This document shows positions 936 to 56,625 of a DNA stretch of 64,000 nucleotides, one piece after another. Below the pieces are notes generated by a model. The model was given only the letters and a program-made list of their open reading frames with translations. It was not told where the DNA came from and did not search any database. Made by a program: the position numbers and the translations under genes. Each line of letters opens with the position of its first letter. The stretch's first letter is position 1. Source of the stretch: Octopus vulgaris (lineage: Eukaryota); contig OX597818.1 of NCBI GenBank assembly GCA_951406725.2, positions 111,414,001-111,478,000 on the forward strand. Direction: 5' to 3'.

Positions 936-978
936 TCCACATTGATAAGGGGCAAATACCCCGAAACTAGTCTGTGGA
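936..978 (+). ncRNA. Minimal type I hammerhead ribozyme, U3-A8 core variant, in PLE-like pLTR fragment
   Basis: TCCACA-TTGATAA-GGGG caaata CCCC-GAAA-CTAG-TC-TGTGGA: stems I and II pair fully, stem III palindromic, GUC cleavage triplet; inverted copy of its 3' half at ~894-913. Confidence 0.8.
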
Positions 979-19025: not shown

Positions 19026-20537
19026 TTAGATATCATTTGAAAACATCGCTGCACAATTTGGTAAGAAAGCAAACAAGATTAATTATTAAAGTTTGTTAAA
19101 TTAATTTGTATAGAAATATTTCTAGGAAAAGTCAGCACTTTCATAGCTACACAAACAAACACGCCTATTTCTGCTACATATATGCACACACACATCCGAA
19201 CGTTCATACACACATACATACTTATATACATGTACATACACATACGTAGAACCATACACACTTCAATACAGGTGTGCGTGCGTAGCTGCGTGCGTAGCTG
19301 CGTGCGTAGCTGCGCGCGTGTGTGAAGGTAGACTGTGAGTGTATGAGTTGTTTCCTACAATCTTCCTGGTTGTTGATCGTTTAGCAAGATATATATTCAT
19401 TTTATATACACTGACATACATAAATACATACATTCGCATATACACAGACACAAATACAGGCATACGTATGAATGTGCATACTTACGTATGTAATTACATA
19501 CACACATTGCAACCCGTAGATACACTCGTGTATATATATATACATATATACATACATAGATGTTTGAGAAAAGCACCATTCTGTCAAAATATACATGATT
19601 TACGTGTTACACCCAGTTGATATGTCATAACAGATCTTTTTCTAATTATCGTCGCTGTTTTCCGTTTTCTTTTCCTTCCTTCCCCCGCTTATTATATGAT
19701 TTACTTAATAGAAAAATATAGGTGTTGCGCACACCGATACGAATTTATATACATCAACTCTACATCATAAACCATAACGACAATCACCCATCATCATCAT
19801 CATCATCAGCTTAACTTCCACTGTTATTGTCATCACCATCGATTTATCACACTTAGAACAACAACGCATACATAGACACAAACACGGGAAGAAAAACTGA
19901 AAATAAATTTAATAACAAACAAGGAAAATCGCAAAAAAAAAAAAAAAATATCGTCACTTCCCGTTCACGCGCACAAATTCAGACTCAGACGAACAGATTA
20001 TCAATGGTTGAGTTTGCAAAAGATTTTAGCAAATTTTGGCAACGCTTCTCAAAATCACAAAATTACATTAAATTTTCTAAGGTAGAAGAAAAATATTTCG
20101 TGAAAGATACTGTTTTTTTTTTTTTGATATATAAGTAACGTGAAAAATATATTAATATCTATATTAATATAATTTGTCTGTCTGCACACCACTCTATCTC
20201 ATTAATAAATATATATTTACTTTTTGCATTCCACCAATTCTATAATGTATCATTAAACTTTTATTGGATAAACACACACACACACACACACGCATATATA
20301 TACATACATACATACATACACACACACGCATATATATACATACACATACACACATATATAAATATGTATTTAGACACATACATGTATGTATATATACGAA
20401 TATAAAGTGTTGTATATATATATATGTTTGCGTGTGTATGTGTGTGTGCATGTAAGTATTTTCTTATGTATATGTATACATATATTTGAATGTTTATACA
20501 TACCCATATATATATGTTTGCACATTTATATATATAT

Positions 20538-21920
20538 AAACAGGGAAACAGATCCCTCGCAGTCAACTATCGCCCAATCTCACTCACCTCCCACATCATT
20601 AAAGTGTTTGAAAGAGTGTTAAGATCAAGGATAGCTGACTTCCTGGAGACCCACAAACTCCTAAATTCAAATCAGCATGGCTTTCGCTGTGGCAGGGACT
20701 GTCTAACACAGCTCTTACACCACATTGAAGATGTACTCAAAGCCTTGGGAACAGGTTCGAACTCTGACGTCATATACTTTGACTTCAGTAAAGCGTTCGA
20801 CAGGGTAGACCATAACATCCTACTCTCAAAATTGGCAAATGTTGGAATCCGTGGAAAAGTTCTACACTGGATTCAGTATTTCCTAGCGAATAGAACACAA
20901 CATGTTGTAGTTGATGGAGTCCATTCAAACCCAGCAAAAGTCACCAGCGGTGTTCCCCAGGGAACTGTTTTGGGTCCGCTACTCTTCATAATTTATGTAA
21001 ACGACCTTTCCAGTGTCGTACATCACTGCAAAGTGAGAATATTCGCTGATGACACTAAGCTCCAGCAAATCGTCAATGAAGAAGCAGACCGAACTCAACT
21101 CCAGTCTGACCTATATGCTGTGAGTCAATGGGCAGACAGAAACAAAATGCAACTGAATGAGGGAAAATTTGAACTGATGCATTTTGGAAGAAATTCCTCA
21201 CTAAAACAACCATACTCTCTTTCTTCAGGGGAACCGCTCACAGCCTCTAACAATATCAGAGACCTGGGTGTAATTGTTGATGACGATCTCAGTTGGAGTG
21301 CACACATCAACAAGAAGGTCGATACAGCTCGTAGGATGAGTTCCTGGATCTTAAGAACTTTCCGGTCCAGAGAACAAGGTGTCATCATACCACTTTTTTC
21401 ATCCTTTGTACGGCCACACCTTGAATACTGCTGCCCACTGTGGTCTCCTCACACAAGACAAAACATCTCCAGAATTGAGTCACCCCAGAGGGCTCTCACT
21501 AAACAAATTGAAGGCATGGCTGCTCTCGATTATTGGGATCGCCTTAAAGCCTTGAAACTTTACTCCCTCCAGCGTCGCCGTGAGCGGTAGATCATTTGTA
21601 CGATGTGGAAAATATACCGCCAACTTTGCCCAAACGACCTAAACATTAGCTTCAAGGTTCATCCGAGACTTGGACCACGGGCTATACGTCCCCTGCCAAA
21701 TTCAAGATCACAACATACATGTACACTGCAACATAATTTCTTTTCCTCAACAGGCCCTGCCCTATTTAACATTGTCCCGAGGGAGATCAAAGAGGAAAAG
21801 GATCCCATCAACTTCAAACAGAGTCTGGATAGATTCCTTCAAAGAATACCAGATAAGCCACCCATAATTGGATACAACTCACCCAACAAGAACTCACTAC
21901 TTGAACAAAACTTGACTTAA
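20538..21920 (+). pseudogene. Non-LTR reverse transcriptase ORF2 remnant with one in-frame stop
   Basis: ORFs 20490-21590 and 21603-21920 are in the same frame; the N-terminal residues of the first ORF are microsatellite-derived. Confidence 0.9.
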
Positions 21921-22872: not shown

Positions 22873-22968
<96 letters not shown>

Positions 22969-23309
22969 ACGTCTATATCTAGCATGTTGACTGTCCACTT
23001 TTCGTGTTCAGTCCTTAATTGGTATATATAAATATTTTAATCTTCGGATTCTTTTTTAATATGCTAGACCACTGGTCTTAATTGATAAATATCAATTTCT
23101 ACCCTTAATTAATTTTATATAAATAAATGTTCTCTAACCGATAAATTAACTGCTGCTAATTATTAGCTGCAGGCTAGTTTCCTCGGGTCTCAACGCGCCA
23201 AGGTAAAGGCATTTGAAAGATATATTCAAATGTAATAGGCTGAACTCCATGCACGCGATATTTCGGTATCGTGTTTGCATTTAGTCCAGCAAATTACATT
23301 TATAACGGA

Positions 23310-23374
23310 CCATGCTGATGATGGCTGCAGTTTTCCTTGCGGAAAATAACAGCTGAAACTAAGTTAGTACATGG
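23310..23374 (+). ncRNA. Type I hammerhead ribozyme, canonical core
   Basis: CCATG-CTGATGA-T-GGCTG...TTTTCC ttgc GGAAAA...CAGCT-GAAA-CTAAGTTAG-TA-CATGG; predicted cut after GUA at 23369. Confidence 0.88.
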
Positions 23375-23814
23375 GTAATTATTTTATTTCGTATATTTTT
23401 CACTTGTTTATTGCTATGGTTTTGTGTTGAGTTTGATCTGAGAACATAATCTTTTGTGGAGAATGACGATTTGACGTCTATATCTAGCATGTTGACTGTC
23501 CACTTTTCGTGTTCAGTCCTTAATTGGTATATATAAATATTTTAATCTTCGGATTCTTTTTTAATATGCTAGACCACTGGTCTTAATTGATAAATATCAA
23601 TTTCTACCCTTAATTAATTTTATATAAATAAATGTTCTCTAACCGATAAATTAACTGCTGCTAATTATTAGCTGCAGGCTAGTTTTCTCGGGTCTCAACG
23701 CGCCAAGGTAAAGGCATTTGAAAGATATATTCAAATGTAATAGGCTGAACTCCATGCACGCGATATTTCGGTATCGTGTTTGCATTTAGTCCAGCAAATT
23801 ACATTTATAACGGA

Positions 23815-23879
23815 CCATGCTGATGATGGCTGCAGTTTTCCTTGCGGAAAATAACAGCTGAAACTAAGTTAGTACATGG
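23815..23879 (+). ncRNA. Type I hammerhead ribozyme, second tandem copy
   Basis: Identical to 23310-23374, 505 bp downstream; predicted cut after 23874. Confidence 0.88.
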
Positions 23880-24110
23880 GTAATTATTTTATTTCGTATA
23901 TTTTTCACTTGTTTATTGCTATGGTTTTGTGTTGAGTTTGATCTGAGAACATAATCTTTTGTGGAGAATGACGATTTGACGTCTATATCTAGCATGTTGA
24001 CTGTCCACTTTTCGTGTTCAGTCCTTAATTGGTATATATAAATATTTTAATATCGGATATATAATATGCTATATATCTTAATTGATAAATATCACACACA
24101 CTACCCTTAA

Positions 24111-24169
<59 letters not shown>

Positions 24170-24170
<1 letters not shown>

Positions 24171-24965
24171 TGTGGTTGTCTACTCCTTATGCAGAGTTTG
24201 GCCACCTCTTGTATACCTACACCTTATTACCATCATAGCATCTGATGTGGATTTGTAAACCAGATAATGTTCTGAAAAGACACCCACATAGATTGCATAT
24301 CTGATTTGGACCAGCAAGATCTGCAGTTAAGTTCTGATGTTTGTGGATCTCAAAACGTATTTTGAGGCCTCCATTGGATTTGCAAATCTTCTGGCATACG
24401 CTGCATTCAAAGGTTTGCACATACATATAGGCAAAATAGTTGGTGGAGGTCGGTTTTCCATGTTTTCGCAGATGAGTTTTGAGGCCAGCAAAAGACAAGC
24501 ATGGTCTCTCACAGACTGCACACATAAAGGTCATTGTCATTCACCTTCTCGATCGTTATATTCTTCCTTAGATCTCTTTTGAGTCTTGTATTATCCTGGC
24601 CTCTTCAAATGCTTTCACTTCACTCTTTTGTTCGCCATCCAGCTCGATCTGAAGCATGTCTTCTAGATCCATTCCGAGTAACTTCGTATTAGTCCTTATC
24701 CTGTCCTTAAACTTGTTTCAGGTTTACGGCGATAGTATTTCCTCTCTGCAAGATCACCATAAAATAGCTGTTTCGGCATGCGTTCATCCGCCATCCGAAC
24801 AATATGGCCACACCATCTCATTTGGTTCCTCAAAATCATAGCTTTAATTGAGGTTATGCCTGCAGATGCAAGGACATCTGTGTTTGGAGTAAAAGAACTC
24901 CATTTAATTGTGCAATGCCCGAAGGTTACGGAACTGTGGGCTTATGTCGAACACCTGCAGTCACA
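24170..24965 (-). mobile_element. RTE-clade LINE 3' end with three C-terminal C2H2-like fingers, decayed
   Basis: Minus strand IKWSSFTPNTDVLASAGITSIKAMILRNQMRWCGHIVRMADERMPKQLFYGDL, then CAVCERPCLSFAGLKTHLRKH, CSVCQKICKSNGGL, CNLCGCLFRTLSGLQIH. Confidence 0.85.
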
Positions 24966-33800: not shown

Positions 33801-34082
33801 AAACAATTGCAGCGTGGAAGGTGTTTATAAGCCATTTAAGAAACACACAAAAGCCGTTCGATTCAATTCAACATTTAAGTTTAATTTGTCAAAATATTTT
33901 CGTCGCTAAAATCCGCGACCTGTTCACTGACAAAAATCAGCACGGAATTTTGTCAGTAAACAGGTCGCGGATTTTAGCGACGAAAATATTTTGACAAATT
34001 AAACTTAAATGTTGAAGTGAATCGAACGGCTTTTGTGTGTTTCTTAAATGGCTTATAAACACCTTCCACGCTGCAATTGTTT
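33801..34082. repeat. Near-perfect inverted repeat (~135-bp arms); each arm has hammerhead architecture with a G3-C8 core
   Basis: TTGTCA-GTGAACA (GTAAACA in the + arm)-G-GTCGC ggatttta GCGAC-GAAA-ATAT-TT-TGACAA; + arm motif 33950-33997. Confidence 0.8.
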
Positions 34083-37603: not shown

Positions 37604-37646
37604 GCTGCATTGATAAAGGGCAAATACCCTGAAACATGTCTGCAGC
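37604..37646 (+). ncRNA. Minimal type I hammerhead, U3-A8 core, same family as 936-978
   Basis: GCTGCA-TTGATAA-AGGG caaata CCCT-GAAA-CATG-TC-TGCAGC; compensatory changes in all three stems versus 936-978. Confidence 0.85.
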
Positions 37647-38842: not shown

Positions 38843-39247
38843 CGTAGGAGTGGCTGTGCGGTAAGTTGCTTGCTTACCAGCCACATAGTTCCGGGTTCAG
38901 TCCCACTGCGTGACACCTTGGGCAAGTATCTTCTACTATAGCCTCGGGCCGACCAACGCCTTGTGAGTGAATTTGGTAGACGGAAACTGCAAGAATCCCG
39001 TCGTATATATGTATATTTATATGTATGTATGTGTGTGCGTATATGTGTGTGTTCTGTGGTTAGCAACCGATGTGGTGTGTTTACGTCCCCGTAACTTAGC
39101 AGTTCGGCAAAAGAGACTGATAAAATAAGTACTAGGTTTACAAAGAATAAGTCCTGGGGTCGATTTGCTCGATTAAAGGCGGTGCTCCAGTATGGCCACA
39201 GTCACGTGACTGAAACAAGTAAAAGAGTAAAAGAGTAAAAGAGTAAA
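38841..39247 (+). mobile_element. SINE family C, full length
   Basis: GGCGTAGGAGTGGCTGTGCGGTAAG head to (AAAAGAGT)n tail. Confidence 0.85.
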
Positions 39248-39249
39248 GA

Positions 39250-39289
<40 letters not shown>

Positions 39290-39391
39290 ATATTAGACAA
39301 AAATAAGATAATAAATCCAAGGCTGTGAGGAGCCTTTTTTTCAGGACATTTTTATATGTATGTATATATATATGTATATATATATATATAT

Positions 39392-39697
39392 CTTTCTCTT
39401 TTCTCTCTTTTACTTGTTTCAGTCATTTGACCGCGGCCATGCTGGAGCACCGCCTTTAGTCGAGCAAATCGACCCCGGAACTTATTCTTTGTAAGCCCAG
39501 TACTTATTCTATGTGTCTCTTTTGCCGAACCGCTAAGGGACGGGGACGTAAACACACCAGCATCGGTTGTCAGGCAATGCTAGGGGGACAAAAACAAACA
39601 CACAAAGACACACACACATACATATATATATATATACATACATATATACGACAGGCTTCTTTCAGTTTCCGTCTACCAAATCCACTCACAAGGCATT

Positions 39698-39698
<1 letters not shown>
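39392..39698 (-). mobile_element. SINE family C, 5'-truncated, inverted relative to 38841
   Basis: Colinear with 22468-22760. Confidence 0.85.
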
Positions 39699-39747
<49 letters not shown>

Positions 39748-47672: not shown

Positions 47673-48105
47673 TATATACATACAATTATATATTTGTTTT
47701 TTTTATTCCTTTTACTTGTTTTAGTCATTAGACGGTGGCCATTCCGGGAACCAGCTTGAAGGGCTTTAGTTTGGTATTTATTTTATCAGGAACTTTTATC
47801 GATCTGCTTGGTTACATCGATGTAAATAAACATCACCGGTTCCCAAGCGAGGGTAGAACAACCAAGCTTTTACATGGTTCTTTTGACAATCTTTTTCTAA
47901 AAAGTGAAACCGGTAAAGTAAATAAACATCTTTTAAAATTGCATTTTCAAACCTTCTTTCATATGTAATTCCACTCGTGCGGTACCTTACAACTCCACTT
48001 TGTTATATATATATACACACACACTTGATATAATATGATTCTTTGTATGTATGTATGTATGTATGTATGTATGTATGTATGTATGTATGTATGTATGTAT
48101 GTATG

Positions 48106-51476: not shown

Positions 51477-51535
<59 letters not shown>

Positions 51536-52293
51536 GTACATATTTAGATACATAAAACCTCATTATTTTACTTATTAAGAAAACCGTGCGAATCATTCGA
51601 AAGGCGTTGTATTGCGAATTGAGAAAAAATTTCCTTAAACAGAGGTCAAATTTGATAAAAGAATAAACTGCCTGATTTTATGCCAAAAAAAAAAAAAATT
51701 AATCTTCACTTGATATGACAGTCACATGTTTGAATTCCCATGGTGCACGTCAGAATATTTCTTTCCTCGTGAGGATGGAGAGCGACTGTACGTAACTTGT
51801 TAGTTGGGGTTAATATTTCGACTTGCCTTTAATTCTTGACCCGAACGAATGACTGCAATACGTAAGTCTAGCCTTAAATGTGTTTGCGATCAAGTTGATA
51901 TACGGTTTTACTATATAGTCCCTTGAGTTTCTATCAGCTCTTTGTAATACTTCTTTAAAGGAATTTCCTCTTCGGGGGGAAAAAGTATTTGGCAGAGCTA
52001 TTGTTCTTAGATCGGGGAGGTTGGCGAATGTTTTAGAGATTTGTAATCTAATTTTGCCCTCTACTACCGTAGTTACCCTTTCTGCAATATATATTGAAAT
52101 ATCCGTGTGAAGAGAACGTTTTAATATCATCTTAGATAAAGGGAACTATTTCAGTAGAGTGCAGATCAATCATAACGCATGATTGATCATGCCAACGTGA
52201 AACTTAAAGTAACGACAAATAGTGTCTACAAATATACGAACAGACAGACAGACACCCACCCACGTGTGTGTGTGTGTGCGTGCGAATACTATA

Positions 52294-52349
<56 letters not shown>

Positions 52350-52488
52350 TCAATAAATGGTGGGGTTGTGTTGACCGCACGTGGAGAAATGATAAGTAAG
52401 GAAAAATTTTTTTAAAAATGCAGAATGCTCAAATGAAATAAAATTTTAATAAAATGAGAAAATGATAAAATATATAAATATATATATT

Positions 52489-52529
52489 TATTCAACCGGT
52501 TTTCGTCAATGTATGACTTGTCAAGAATA
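52489..52529 (-). ncRNA. Minimal hammerhead, U3-A8 core, left arm
   Basis: Exact reverse complement of 53759-53799. Confidence 0.8.
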
Positions 52530-53166
52530 TTTATGTTTTAAGAAGTTTTTTTGAAAATTAGAAAGGGGAAAAAAAGAAAATTGCAATGTTTTTTGTAAAA
52601 GAATAATGATAAAAATGTACAAAAATTAAAAAATAAGTTCTCCGATACATTGTGAGTTCGTTGTGTATCTTGAGTTTTATGGTTGTTTACCAAAAAGTTA
52701 CCTTGAGGTGTTAAGATCCAAAGGGATTAAGAGCATGTGATGTGTTGTGTTGTTGAATACAGCATGTTGCAGGACAGGAAGTAGTAGTAATTGTGGTCCT
52801 GGTTCTTCAGTTCCTGTGTTGTGAGTAAGGGGAGAAAACTCTTTTGAGTTCTTCAATAAAACCCAAATTATAAAACTATCATTTTAGCTTCATTTGCATT
52901 ATCTTTTTTATATATAATTGCTTGTTAACTTAACTTTCAGATTTTAACACTTTATTTATATTATTTTCTAATAATATAAAACTGCATAGACAATTGCATT
53001 TCAAATTGTCATATCATTTATAATAAAAATGATAGTAGTAACAACAACAATAGTGAAAATGATATTTAAAGAATATAAGTTTTAGCTTGAAGTGGTGAAT
53101 GCATGGTATCTTTATATATTTGTGTTAGTCCATCCATGAAGAGTGAGGTAGAGGAAGGAAGTTTGA

Positions 53167-53277
53167 TCAACGAGGAGTTTGCATATTAAGTTGTGTTTGG
53201 AATTTTTCAATAAAGAGATTCTCCTTGTTAATTCTCTCCTGTGTGGTGATCCCGTCTTTACATTGGTAGAAGGGGAA
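53167..53277 (-). pseudogene. C-terminal remnant of Penelope GIY-YIG endonuclease ORF
   Basis: Hand translation FPFYQCKDGITTQERINKENLFIEKFQTQLNMQTPR*; R..KE..FI......LN pattern typical of GIY-YIG C-termini; below the ORF-track cutoff. Confidence 0.75.
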
Positions 53278-53758
53278 TGACAATTTGAAATGCAATTGTC
53301 TATGCAGTTTTATATTATTAGAAAATAATATAAATAAAGTGTTAAAATCTGAAAGTTAAGTTAACAAGCAATTATATATAAAAAAGATAATGCAAATGAA
53401 GCTAAAATGATAGTTTTATAATTTGGGTTTTATTGAAGAACTCAAAAGAGTTTTCTCCCCTTACTCACAACACAGGAACTGAAGAACCAGGACCACAATT
53501 ACTACTACTTCCTGTCCTGCAACATGCTGTATTCAACAACACAACACATCACATGCTCTTAATCCCTTTGGATCTTAACACCTCAAGGTAACTTTTTGGT
53601 AAACAACCATAAAACTCAAGATACACAACGAACTCACAATGTATCGGAGAACTTATTTTTTAATTTTTGTACATTTTTATCATTATTCTTTTACAAAAAA
53701 CATTGCAATTTTCTTTTTTTCCCTTTCTAATTTTCAAAAAAACTTCTTAAAACATAAA

Positions 53759-53799
53759 TATTCTTGACAAGTCATACATTGACGAAAACCGGTTGAATA
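53759..53799 (+). ncRNA. Minimal hammerhead, U3-A8 core, right arm
   Basis: TATTC-TTGACAA-GTCA tacat TGAC-GAAA-ACCGG-TT-GAATA; stems I and II pair fully; AACCGGTT palindrome. Confidence 0.8.
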
Positions 53800-53893
53800 A
53801 ATATATATATTTATATATTTTATCATTTTCTCATTTTATTAAAATTTTATTTCATTTGAGCATTCTGGATTTTTAAAAAAATTTTTCCTTACT

Positions 53894-53931
<38 letters not shown>

Positions 53932-54011
53932 CGTGCGTGAATACTATACATATATATATATATATACTTCGAAAGGGATGCGTGGCGTTCAATCAAATAA
54001 TAATATAACTA

Positions 54012-54389: not shown

Positions 54390-54462
<73 letters not shown>

Positions 54463-55082
54463 GTACATATTTAGATACACTTATACGCACCTGCATATAC
54501 AAAAAAATAATAAATTAGCGAATATGTTTTGTCAAACATAAAACTTAATATAATACTTTTCTTCCAAGGAAACAATTATAGCAGTTAAACAAAAACACTT
54601 ATGATATACTAAGGTATAAATTCTAAACATAAAAAAATTATTGTTTTCAACAGAAACATGGACATTTAGCAGGGGGGAAAAACCGCCGAAACTTAGATAG
54701 AAGTCTACAAAAAGGAACAAAACATTCTATTATAAAGCAATGCTAAAGCTAGAGCCAAAGAAAGCCTTATAAATATGAAACAAAGATAAACAGTTTGAAA
54801 CTAAACTGAAACGTAAAAAAACATGGCAATAGAATTTGCTATCGTCTACCTTGGAACGAAAAATACAAATTAAACTGATAGAATGGGTGAAATAAAAATC
54901 ACCAATGGAAATACATAAAACAATAAAATAAAATGAAGTGAAATGGTTTTTCTTTTGTTATGCTTTCATTTGAAAATGAATATTTCGAATGAAAACCAGT
55001 AGAATTTTCGAAGACCTACTTAAGCGTATTGAAAAAACATATACAGGAATTTGATATCTATTAGAAATTCTATAAACATAAA

Positions 55083-56116: not shown

Positions 56117-56625
56117 CCAAGAACTGGAACGGGAAGTGCTGGTTCATCCTCCATAATCTCCAGACTTGGCGCCGTCATATTTTCATCCCTTTCGACCTCT
56201 TTCGAACACTTTGTGCGGTGTATCATTCAATAATGACGTAGAATTGAGGGCTTAGTTGGACGAATTCATTGAGTCAAGACCAGAAGTTTTCTATCGCCGA
56301 GGCATCGGAAAACTTATTGAACGATAGAAGAATATATTATTGATCAATTTGTTGTAGATCTTTTAAAAATAAAGTTCTATATTTAGGAGATGAGGAATTA
56401 TGTACATTATTTACATTATTTACATTTGACGGATATTTGTCCTCATCTTGTATGTTATTAACACAAGACACCTGATGAAGGCTGGAGGGTATACCAGCCG
56501 AAACGTTGTGTTAACAACAAACAAGATGAGGATAAATATCAGTCAAATGTAAATAATGTAGGTTTTTTTTATGTTTAAAATAAATTTGAAAAAACACTCG
56601 TGAATTATTCCTCAACAAAATATAT
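56117..56625 (+). mobile_element. Mariner transposon remnant (transposase C-terminus and probable right end), interrupted by a hairpin insert
   Basis: QELEREVLVHPP*SPDLAPSYFHPFRPLSNTL...FYRRGIGKLIER* matches the mariner YSPDLAPSD region; TIR-like GAATTATTCCTCAACAAAATA-TA at ~56603-56625. Confidence 0.8.
56467..56512 (+). ncRNA. Minimal type I hammerhead, canonical core, inside a hairpin insert (~56387-56560)
   Basis: GACAC-CTGATGA-A-GGCTGG agggtata CCAGCC-GAAA-CG-TT-GTGTT; tail duplicated in inverted orientation upstream. Confidence 0.8.

What the first reader, a model, noticed from the sequence alone, without database searches (positions are those of the whole stretch)
52347..53896. Penelope element hidden from the ORF track: 620-bp inverted pLTRs, GIY-YIG tail, UUGACAA ribozymes
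Seen: near-identical inverted arms, a 264-bp spacer encoding ...PFYQCKDGITTQERINKENLFIEKFQTQLN on the minus strand, an HHR in each arm, and a 45-bp extension (52347-52391) only on the element's 3' arm. Established: 5'-truncated PLEs often have an inverted pLTR upstream. This ties a U3-A8 HHR to a PLE directly and gives a ~620-bp dsRNA stem if transcribed.
Basis: partly seen in the sequence, partly recalled or inferred. Interest (0 to 1): 0.7.

Follow-up and report, generated by a model that had tools for sequence, protein, structure and literature searches.

The report
Young truncated Penelope retrotransposon insertion
This is a recently inserted, heavily shortened copy of a Penelope-type jumping gene, built from two head-to-head copies of its 3' end that each carry a rare but already described self-cleaving RNA motif, so it is an ordinary example of a known kind.

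Summary
Arms 52392-53012 and 53277-53896 are 99.7% identical (2 differences) around a 264-bp spacer, a 44-45 bp tail lies on one arm only, and both ends sit in (TA)n. The 36-codon minus-strand peptide is the C-terminus of a Penelope-like element (PLE) GIY-YIG endonuclease. It is the best of 2686 window segments against a profile of 23 RT-EN relatives (E=1.2e-7), and those relatives are Neptune-type. Each arm holds a U3-A8 type I hammerhead motif, but with an extra A in GAAA. Only one motif is sense in any transcript, and in a read-through RNA the 620-bp stem sequesters it. A sister family in the window and a related RT-EN contig carry U3-A8 motifs without the extra A. The claimed novelty is already in print: U3-A8 in a PLE (PMC4209133), inverted truncated copy plus tail (PMC8557442, PMC3846280), and tail ends as RT start sites (PMC11167929). 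Verdict: a young, 5'-truncated, non-coding, Neptune-like PLE insertion; a new member of a known kind. Cleavage, transcription and editing are untested.

The parts
52301..52346 (.). (TA)n tract at the element's 3' end (target site)
   Evidence: sequence; tract located
52347..52391 (-). 44-45 bp PLE 'tail', on the direct (3') copy only; 60% A+C. Its last codons read TPPFIDL, weakly like the KPxIINL start of related ORFs.
   Evidence: similar tails at 47969-48004 (+) and about 10071-10037 (-)
52360..52380 (-). small hairpin GUG-C-GGU / AC-rich loop / ACC-C-CAC in the tail; candidate RT initiation signal
   Evidence: same fold in 3 of 3 tail copies, none more stable than shuffles; role inferred from PMC11167929
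52392..53012 (-). 3' arm: last 621 nt (3' UTR/pLTR) of the direct, sense copy, without the tail
52489..52529 (-). type I hammerhead motif in element sense: U3 at 52524, core UUGACAA, extra A in GAAA, palindromic stem III ACCGGU, predicted cleavage after U17 at 52494
   Evidence: not found by Rfam
52989..53010 (-). 7-bp hairpin starting 2 nt inside the truncation point of the inverted copy
   Evidence: 25 of 887 positions have such a stem within 0-3 nt
53013..53169 (-). stop codon (53169-53167) and unique proximal 3' UTR, in the spacer
53170..53277 (-). last 36 codons of the PLE ORF: C-terminal helix of the GIY-YIG endonuclease with conserved R, E and N; no start codon
53277..53896 (+). inverted, more truncated second copy (620 nt, no tail), joined head-to-head to the direct copy
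53759..53799 (+). identical hammerhead motif in the inverted arm (U3 53764, U17 53794)
53894..53916 (.). (TA)n tract at the other end (overlaps the last bases of the arm)
   Evidence: sequence printed

Best explanation
This is a recent, 5'-truncated insertion of an endonuclease-bearing, Neptune-type Penelope-like retrotransposon into a (TA)n microsatellite. It encodes no protein and can only be a passenger. SHOWN: its anatomy and the identity of the endonuclease C-terminus. INFERRED mechanism (twin priming, about 0.5 within this reading): the RT-EN protein of an intact copy elsewhere nicked both strands of the self-complementary TA tract and primed two cDNAs growing towards each other. One started at the outer RT start site (52347, tail included) and ran about 930 nt; the other started at the inner site (52392 equivalent, no tail) and ran 620 nt, stopping just past a hairpin. 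The two were then joined head-to-head. The hammerhead is the family's pLTR ribozyme, a dimer-dependent type I motif with U3-A8 in place of C3-G8. At this locus it is probably silent: its only cis partner is antisense, a read-through RNA buries it in the 620-bp duplex, and the extra A lets an 8-bp AACCGGUU helix capture the cleavage-site U. Both arms share the extra A, so the donor already had it and still transposed. The confidence given is for the identity as a truncated PLE insertion.
For: Peptide: best of 2686 six-frame window segments against an HMM of 23 relatives that excludes the first hit (27.8 bits, E=1.2e-7). The 36 aa alone score 26.0 bits against a best of 4.2 among 2000 shuffles. 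It is 20 of 31 identical to P0002, which has Pfam GIY-YIG. R15, E19 and N31 are present in 33 of 33 ungapped full-length alignments, out of 73 proteins compared. Of 5 longer relatives scanned, 4 have RVT_1 and 3 have GIY-YIG matches. Among 24 relatives, 24 have the CX2-5CxxC linker, 23 the cysteine-bearing GIY-YIG core and 22 the H..H pair. The hammerhead is sense, 643 nt after the stop. A sister family in the window repeats the core TTGACAA, the stem ACCGGT, the tail hairpin, the (TA)n end and an endonuclease C-terminus. Contig L002 has a U3-A8 motif 184 nt after an RT-EN match. The literature describes the same architecture, cleavage and extension of both strands from two adjacent RT starts that bound the tail, and insertion in vitro without ribozyme cleavage.
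Against: No RT or catalytic GIY-YIG core is left in this copy, so the clade rests on relatives at most about 65% identical over 31 aa. Pfam does not recognise the peptide. The first homologue search found nothing. Of the 4 phmmer hits, 2, including the top one, are unrelated repeat proteins. The 23 relatives were reached through P0002, itself found with the peptide, so the HMM test is not fully independent. Tail similarity to the sister loci is marginal on its own: scores 34 and 31, while 2 of 60 shuffled tails reached 34 or more. The L002 and 47883 motifs have only a 3-bp stem I and do not fold as hammerheads by free energy. The joining mechanism is not shown, and snap-back synthesis explains the same sequence.
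Confidence: 0.95

Rival explanations
1. Same element, different genesis (snap-back). One 930-nt cDNA folded back over a 264-nt loop, primed on itself at 53012 and copied its own arm; the endonuclease then resolved the intermediate at the tail boundary.
For: The plus strand reads tail-arm-spacer-reverse arm, as fold-back synthesis would give. A hairpin lies at the junction (25 of 887 positions have one). Junction palindromes were read as self-priming in PMC3846280, and PMC8557442 ascribes the tail to endonuclease resolution.
Against: Copying must stop exactly at the tail boundary, which in the one PLE studied in vitro is an RT start site on RNA. Only 1 nt of junction microhomology can be seen.
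Confidence: 0.35
2. A foldback or MITE-type DNA transposon with long terminal inverted repeats and a TA target duplication, which happens to hold a PLE fragment.
For: Long, near-perfect inverted arms with TA at both ends.
Against: The inverted repeat stops 44-45 bp short of one end. The spacer is collinear PLE coding sequence plus UTR, and the arms hold a PLE-type hammerhead.
Confidence: 0.02
3. Sequencing or assembly fold-back artefact.
For: Near-perfect inverted repeats are a known chimera signature (own knowledge). One of the 2 arm differences is a homopolymer indel.
Against: The symmetry ends exactly at element boundaries, the flanks are unrelated, and the asymmetry matches the published PLE tail.
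Confidence: 0.03
4. The locus has a host function as a source of long dsRNA (editing substrate, small RNAs) or as a working ribozyme.
For: The predicted duplex is about -1030 to -1050 kcal/mol on either strand.
Against: There is no expression evidence. Of 146 low-repeat frames scanned, 1 had a Pfam match, a C2H2 exon about 28 kb away, so an intronic position is not shown. The insertion is young and single-copy in the window.
Confidence: 0.07

Closest known systems
Neptune-clade EN+ Penelope-like elements (as defined in PMC8557442)
   Same: C-terminal GIY-YIG end, hammerhead in the pLTR, microsatellite target. Relatives have the long CX2-5CxxC linker and CCHH; by eye the linker length fits the Neptune rows, not the short Nematis rows, of Fig. 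S2.
   Different: This copy keeps only 36 codons. The tail is 44-45 bp against the quoted 30-40. No RT tree was made.
Cercyon PLE of Schistosoma mansoni with U3-A8 minimal hammerhead (PMC4209133)
   Same: U3-A8 core covariation in a PLE pLTR. The paper also notes pairs of motifs on opposite strands 100-700 bp apart.
   Different: Here stem II is 4 bp without the bulge after A9, stem III is a 6-nt palindrome, there is an extra A in GAAA, and the two motifs are 1240 bp apart.
Penelope-13_HM and Pen2a/Pen2 of Adineta vaga
   Same: 5'-truncated inverted copy at the 5' end, a hammerhead on each strand, a tail on one arm only, and a palindrome at the pLTR 5' end.
   Different: Penelope-13_HM is Hydra clade with a C3-G8 core. 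The Adineta copies often have 8-10 bp TSDs, which cannot be seen in a TA tract.
PAc (Poseidon of Anolis carolinensis, PMC11167929)
   Same: The tail lies between two RT start sites at an AC-rich stem-loop, the target is AT-rich, and both strands are cleaved and extended.
   Different: Different clade. In PAc the ORF starts inside the hammerhead; here there is no ATG within 300 nt of the tail end (last at 52650).

Membership tests
EN+ Penelope-like element | ORF ends in a GIY-YIG endonuclease with conserved E and N | tested here: met
   only the last 36 codons are present
EN+ Penelope-like element | PLE reverse transcriptase in the same ORF | not testable with these tools
   That part is lost by 5' truncation and no full-length copy was reachable; 4 of 5 relatives scanned have RVT_1
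EN+ Penelope-like element | pLTR organisation with an inverted 5'-truncated copy | tested here: met
   against the descriptions
EN+ Penelope-like element | optional tail at one end only | tested here: met
   44-45 bp at 52347-52391, slightly over the quoted 30-40 bp; similar tails at two sister loci
EN+ Penelope-like element | type I hammerhead motif in the pLTR, sense strand | tested here: met
   variant core, missed by Rfam
EN+ Penelope-like element | variable-length target site duplication | tested here: inconclusive
   both ends in (TA)n; an imperfect repeat of about 40 bp flanks the element
Neptune clade | long CX2-5CxxC linker and CCHH motif | tested here: inconclusive
   absent from this truncated copy; in relatives: linker 24 of 24, GIY-YIG core with cysteines 23 of 24, H..H 22 of 24
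Neptune clade | RT phylogeny groups with Neptune references | not tested
Naiad clade | endonuclease N-terminal to RT, no canonical hammerhead | tested here: not met
   a stop follows 5 codons after the conserved LN, and a hammerhead motif is present
Hydra clade | no CCHH, CxCX5C linker | tested here: not met
   relatives have CCHH and CX2-5CxxC; the listed Hydra-1_oBim hammerhead differs. Judged on relatives only.
TIR DNA transposon / MITE | inverted repeats reach both element ends | tested here: not met
   44-45 bp extension outside the repeat on one side
Type I hammerhead ribozyme | core N3 U G A N N8 A with a 3-8 pair, G10.1-C11.1, stems I and II, UH site | tested here: met
   U3-A8, G10.1-C11.1, 5-bp and 4-bp stems, U16.1-U17
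Type I hammerhead ribozyme | exact G12 A13 A14 A15.1 spacing | tested here: not met
A natural U13a insertion is listed in PMC3088659. I file it as a hammerhead-like variant, not a proven ribozyme.
Type I hammerhead ribozyme | self-cleavage | not testable with these tools
   needs an in vitro assay

The most novel reading that the evidence does not exclude
The UUGACAA...GAAAA-CCGGU motif is a working dimeric hammerhead that tolerates both the U3-A8 swap and an A inserted in the GAAA box. It belongs to a Neptune-type lineage in which relatives switch between C3-G8 (L004) and U3-A8 (L002, 47883, this element), which would make a natural series for testing core plasticity and whether PLEs need their ribozyme. 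I found no such doubly variant core in four paper searches. A large survey of PLE hammerhead variants that I recall (Luense et al. 2017) was not in the listings and was not read.
Probability: 0.2. Interest if true: 0.4.

Novelty: new member of a known kind. Interest (0 to 1): 0.2.

Why it matters
Modestly. It is a clean, very young snapshot of PLE integration: both outer ends fall on the two tail boundaries that in vitro work identified as RT start sites, so it can help to tell twin priming from snap-back. It adds a U3-A8 hammerhead in a Neptune-type lineage, with a core insertion that did not stop the donor from transposing. Such elements are missed by ORF, Pfam and Rfam scans, which matters for repeat annotation. 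If transcribed it would give a long dsRNA, as any young inverted repeat would.

Tried and rejected
Word-index homologue search with the peptide: 4 candidates, none scored. Pfam on the peptide and on the 62-aa frame: no family. Rfam on the whole window at gathering score: 0 hits; at E up to 10 on the element: 11 hits, all microsatellite noise at the flanks; on L001-L004: 1 chance hit. phmmer hits P0001 (beta-helix repeat protein) and P0004 (CLIP repeats) were dropped as repeat-driven chance matches. The 51810-52145 frame next to the element looked PLE-like by eye but has no Pfam or PLE-profile match. An alternative hammerhead register (8-bp AACCGGUU stem, G17, extra C before U3) was rejected because it needs two core defects and the sister motif at 47883 keeps ACCGGT with a normal GAA. 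The idea that the tail encodes the ORF start is only suggestive: TPPFIDL ranks 6th of 1945 7-mers in the element, 79 of 91063 window 7-mers score as high, only 5 of 10 long relatives supplied the motif, and there is no in-frame ATG. The 3' UTRs of the element and of the second endonuclease remnant show no alignment beyond AT-rich noise. A MAFFT alignment of the three tail regions misaligned the element's tail and was not used. L001 (161 nt of 3' sequence) had no hammerhead hit, and L003 has no 3' sequence. The imperfect flanking repeat is not accepted as the element's TSD: it has 2-3 differences in about 40 bp against 2 in 621 between the arms, and extra TA on one side. Names of cluster members for the two named relatives could not be obtained. 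No eukaryotic genome collection was available, and viral and metagenome contigs stayed unchecked, so copy number and family-wide conservation of the extra A are unknown.

Full report
Observation. The region 52347-53896 sits between two (TA)n tracts in an AT-rich, microsatellite-dense window. Alignment gives inverted arms 52392-53012 and 53277-53896 with 2 differences in 621 columns, a 264-bp spacer, and 44-45 bp (52347-52391) beyond the left arm with no partner. No further copy of the arms exists in the window. On the minus strand the order is inverted arm, 36 codons ending in TGA at 53169-53167, 3' UTR, arm, tail.

The peptide. Pfam and a word-index search saw nothing. phmmer over 1.84 billion representatives gave 4 hits at E up to 0.001. 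Two are repeat-rich chance matches, including the top one. P0002 (E=2e-4) has a Pfam GIY-YIG domain and matches 20 of 31 residues at the end of that domain; P0003 is a fragment that looks endonuclease-like by eye and has no Pfam match. P0002 led to 23 longer relatives among 78 candidates; of 5 scanned, 4 have RVT_1 and 3 GIY-YIG. An HMM of those 23 ranks the element's frame first of 2686 window segments (E=1.2e-7). The 36 aa alone score 26.0 bits against a best of 4.2 in 2000 shuffles. This test is not fully independent, since the set was seeded by P0002. Of 73 collected proteins, 53 match the peptide at E up to 0.1, and R15, E19 and N31 are present in all 33 ungapped full-length alignments. 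Among 24 relatives, 24 have the CX2-5CxxC linker, 23 the cysteine-bearing GIY-YIG core and 22 the histidine pair. With a C-terminal endonuclease this points to Neptune or Nematis, and the long linker fits the Neptune rows of the published alignment by eye. The stop codon excludes Naiad. No RT tree was made, so 'Neptune-type' rests on relatives.

The hammerhead. Each arm reads TATTC TTGACAA GTCA TACAT TGAC GAAA ACCGGT T GAATA: stem I 5 bp, U3-A8 core, stem II 4 bp with G10.1-C11.1, a palindromic stem III for dimers, cleavage after U17, and one A too many in the GAAA box. The centroid fold shows stems I and II but is no more stable than shuffles, and Rfam does not detect it. A descriptor written after seeing the motif gave 8 window hits against a mean of 0.03 in 100 shuffles, and hit 3 of 5000 shuffled arms. 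A looser one gave 9 hits against 0.15 in 60 shuffles, and 15 of 3000 arms; with no extra A allowed the element's 2 hits drop out. Five of the 9 hits are U3-A8 (942, 37610, 47883 and the two arms); those at 942 and 37610 are regular, with different but paired stems.

Independent support comes from a sister family in the window. At 47883 the same TTGACAA core and ACCGGT stem occur without the extra A, followed by a tail-like stretch ending in (TA)n. That stretch recurs at 10122-10013 (84.5% over 110 nt), directly upstream of a decayed endonuclease C-terminus at 10026-9872. These two loci are the best non-self matches to the element's tail among 3196 windows, although the scores alone are marginal (34 and 31; 60 shuffled tails averaged 29.2, max 35). 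All 3 fold into the same small hairpin with an AC-rich loop, none beyond chance stability. Four related RT-EN contigs turned up in MAG assemblies, probably host DNA. L002 has a U3-A8 motif 184 nt after the ORF match, L004 a C3-G8 motif, L001 none in 161 nt, and L003 lacks 3' sequence; 1 of 2000 shuffles hit for L002 and for L004. The L002 and 47883 motifs have weak stems and do not fold as hammerheads by energy.

How it works. Shown: a truncated PLE 3' end present twice, head-to-head, in (TA)n. Inferred: an intact element supplied RT-EN in trans. The purified Anolis PLE protein cleaves and extends both strands of AT-rich DNA and starts RT at two adjacent sites in an AC-rich stem-loop that bound the tail. 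Two cDNAs of about 930 and 620 nt from the outer and inner start sites, joined at their ends, give exactly this locus. Snap-back copying of one cDNA gives the same sequence and stays a real rival; a 7-bp hairpin at the junction (25 of 887 positions have one) fits either. The arm divergence of 0.3% implies a young insertion.

The ribozyme is probably silent here. In either transcript direction only the later-made arm is sense, and folding of the whole element pairs all 41 nt of the motif into the duplex (-1053 and -1026 kcal/mol, against -3.5 for the monomer motif). For isolated motifs the double-hammerhead dimer scores -16.5 against -19.5 for a dimer whose 8-bp AACCGGUU helix takes up U17. That the donor moved with this core fits the report that ribozyme mutants still insert in vitro. 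There is no evidence of transcription. One of 146 low-repeat frames, chosen from 240, had a Pfam match: a C2H2 exon at 24220-24540.

What is known. U3-A8 covariation in nature and a U13a core insertion: PMC3088659 (passages and section 8). U3-A8 in the Cercyon PLE, opposite-strand motif pairs, and weak dimer-dependent activity: PMC4209133 (parts 1-2 of 4 of the text and keyword passages of the supplement PDF). Inverted truncated copy, 30-40 bp tail, (TA)n bias and clade motifs: PMC8557442 (passages, section 11, supplement parts 1, 2 and 54 of 59, keyword search); its Penelope-13_HM has a hammerhead on each strand. Inverted pLTRs, tail and junction palindromes: PMC3846280 (passages). RT start sites: PMC11167929 (parts 1-2 of 4). 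bioRxiv 10.64898/2026.07.22.740005 was seen in part 1 of 5 only and its supplements were not seen. Luense et al. 2017 on PLE hammerhead variants is recalled, was not read, and may list this core. Searches showed no description of this family or of a U3-A8 core with an extra A; they cover open-licence papers only.

Source. The organism is not given. An animal, probably a cephalopod, is my inference from recalled genome features; the 2 named relatives are labelled Argonauta hians and Crassostrea virginica. This was not tested.

Verdict. The feature is real and correctly identified, and it is ordinary in architecture: a new member of a known kind, interest 0.2. The one open oddity is the doubly variant ribozyme core.

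Noticed in passing
window 47873-48010 (+): Sister PLE 3' end: U3-A8 hammerhead with the same TTGACAA core and ACCGGT stem but no extra A, then a tail-like hairpin ending in (TA)n.
   Followed up: partly
window 10122-9872 (-): Older PLE remnant in partial tandem: tail 84.5% like 47919-48028, a short TA tract, then a frameshifted GIY-YIG C-terminus.
   Followed up: partly
window 936-978 (+) and 37604-37646 (+): Two related, regular U3-A8 hammerheads (core TTGATAA) with different but paired stems I, II and III; no PLE ORF seen next to them.
   Followed up: partly
window 22966-24131: Tandem repeat of about 505 bp between TA tracts, with a C3-G8 hammerhead in each unit (23315, 23820); retrozyme-like or PLE-derived.
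   Followed up: no
window 56472 (+) and 7274 (-): Minimal C3-G8 hammerheads; the first lies in an inverted repeat 56412-56560.
   Followed up: no
window 51480-51552 and 54407-54479: Exact 73-bp direct repeat (50 bp TA plus a 23-bp unique part) placed like the TSD of a larger, roughly 2.9-kb insertion that would contain the element; the inner sequence is unidentified.
   Followed up: partly
window about 52263-52310 and 53917-53966: Imperfect direct repeat (GT)7-GCGTGC..GAATAC-(TA)n on both sides of the element, 2-3 differences; an older local duplication or a degraded TSD.
   Followed up: partly
L001-L004: Eukaryote-type PLE RT-EN contigs inside bacterial MAG assemblies, most likely host contamination; L002:2161 has a U3-A8 and L004:1852 a C3-G8 hammerhead motif.
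   Followed up: partly
window 24220-24540 (-): Frame with C2H2 zinc-finger matches, the only host-like exon found among 146 frames scanned.
   Followed up: no
window 20490-21590 (+): 366-aa non-LTR retrotransposon RT fragment (RVT_1, E=2.6e-32).
   Followed up: no
window 38953-39699 and 33801-34082: Other inverted repeats made of a common interspersed repeat family.
   Followed up: no
window 44004-43912 (-): Weak match to the PLE RT-EN linker region (E=0.17).
   Followed up: no
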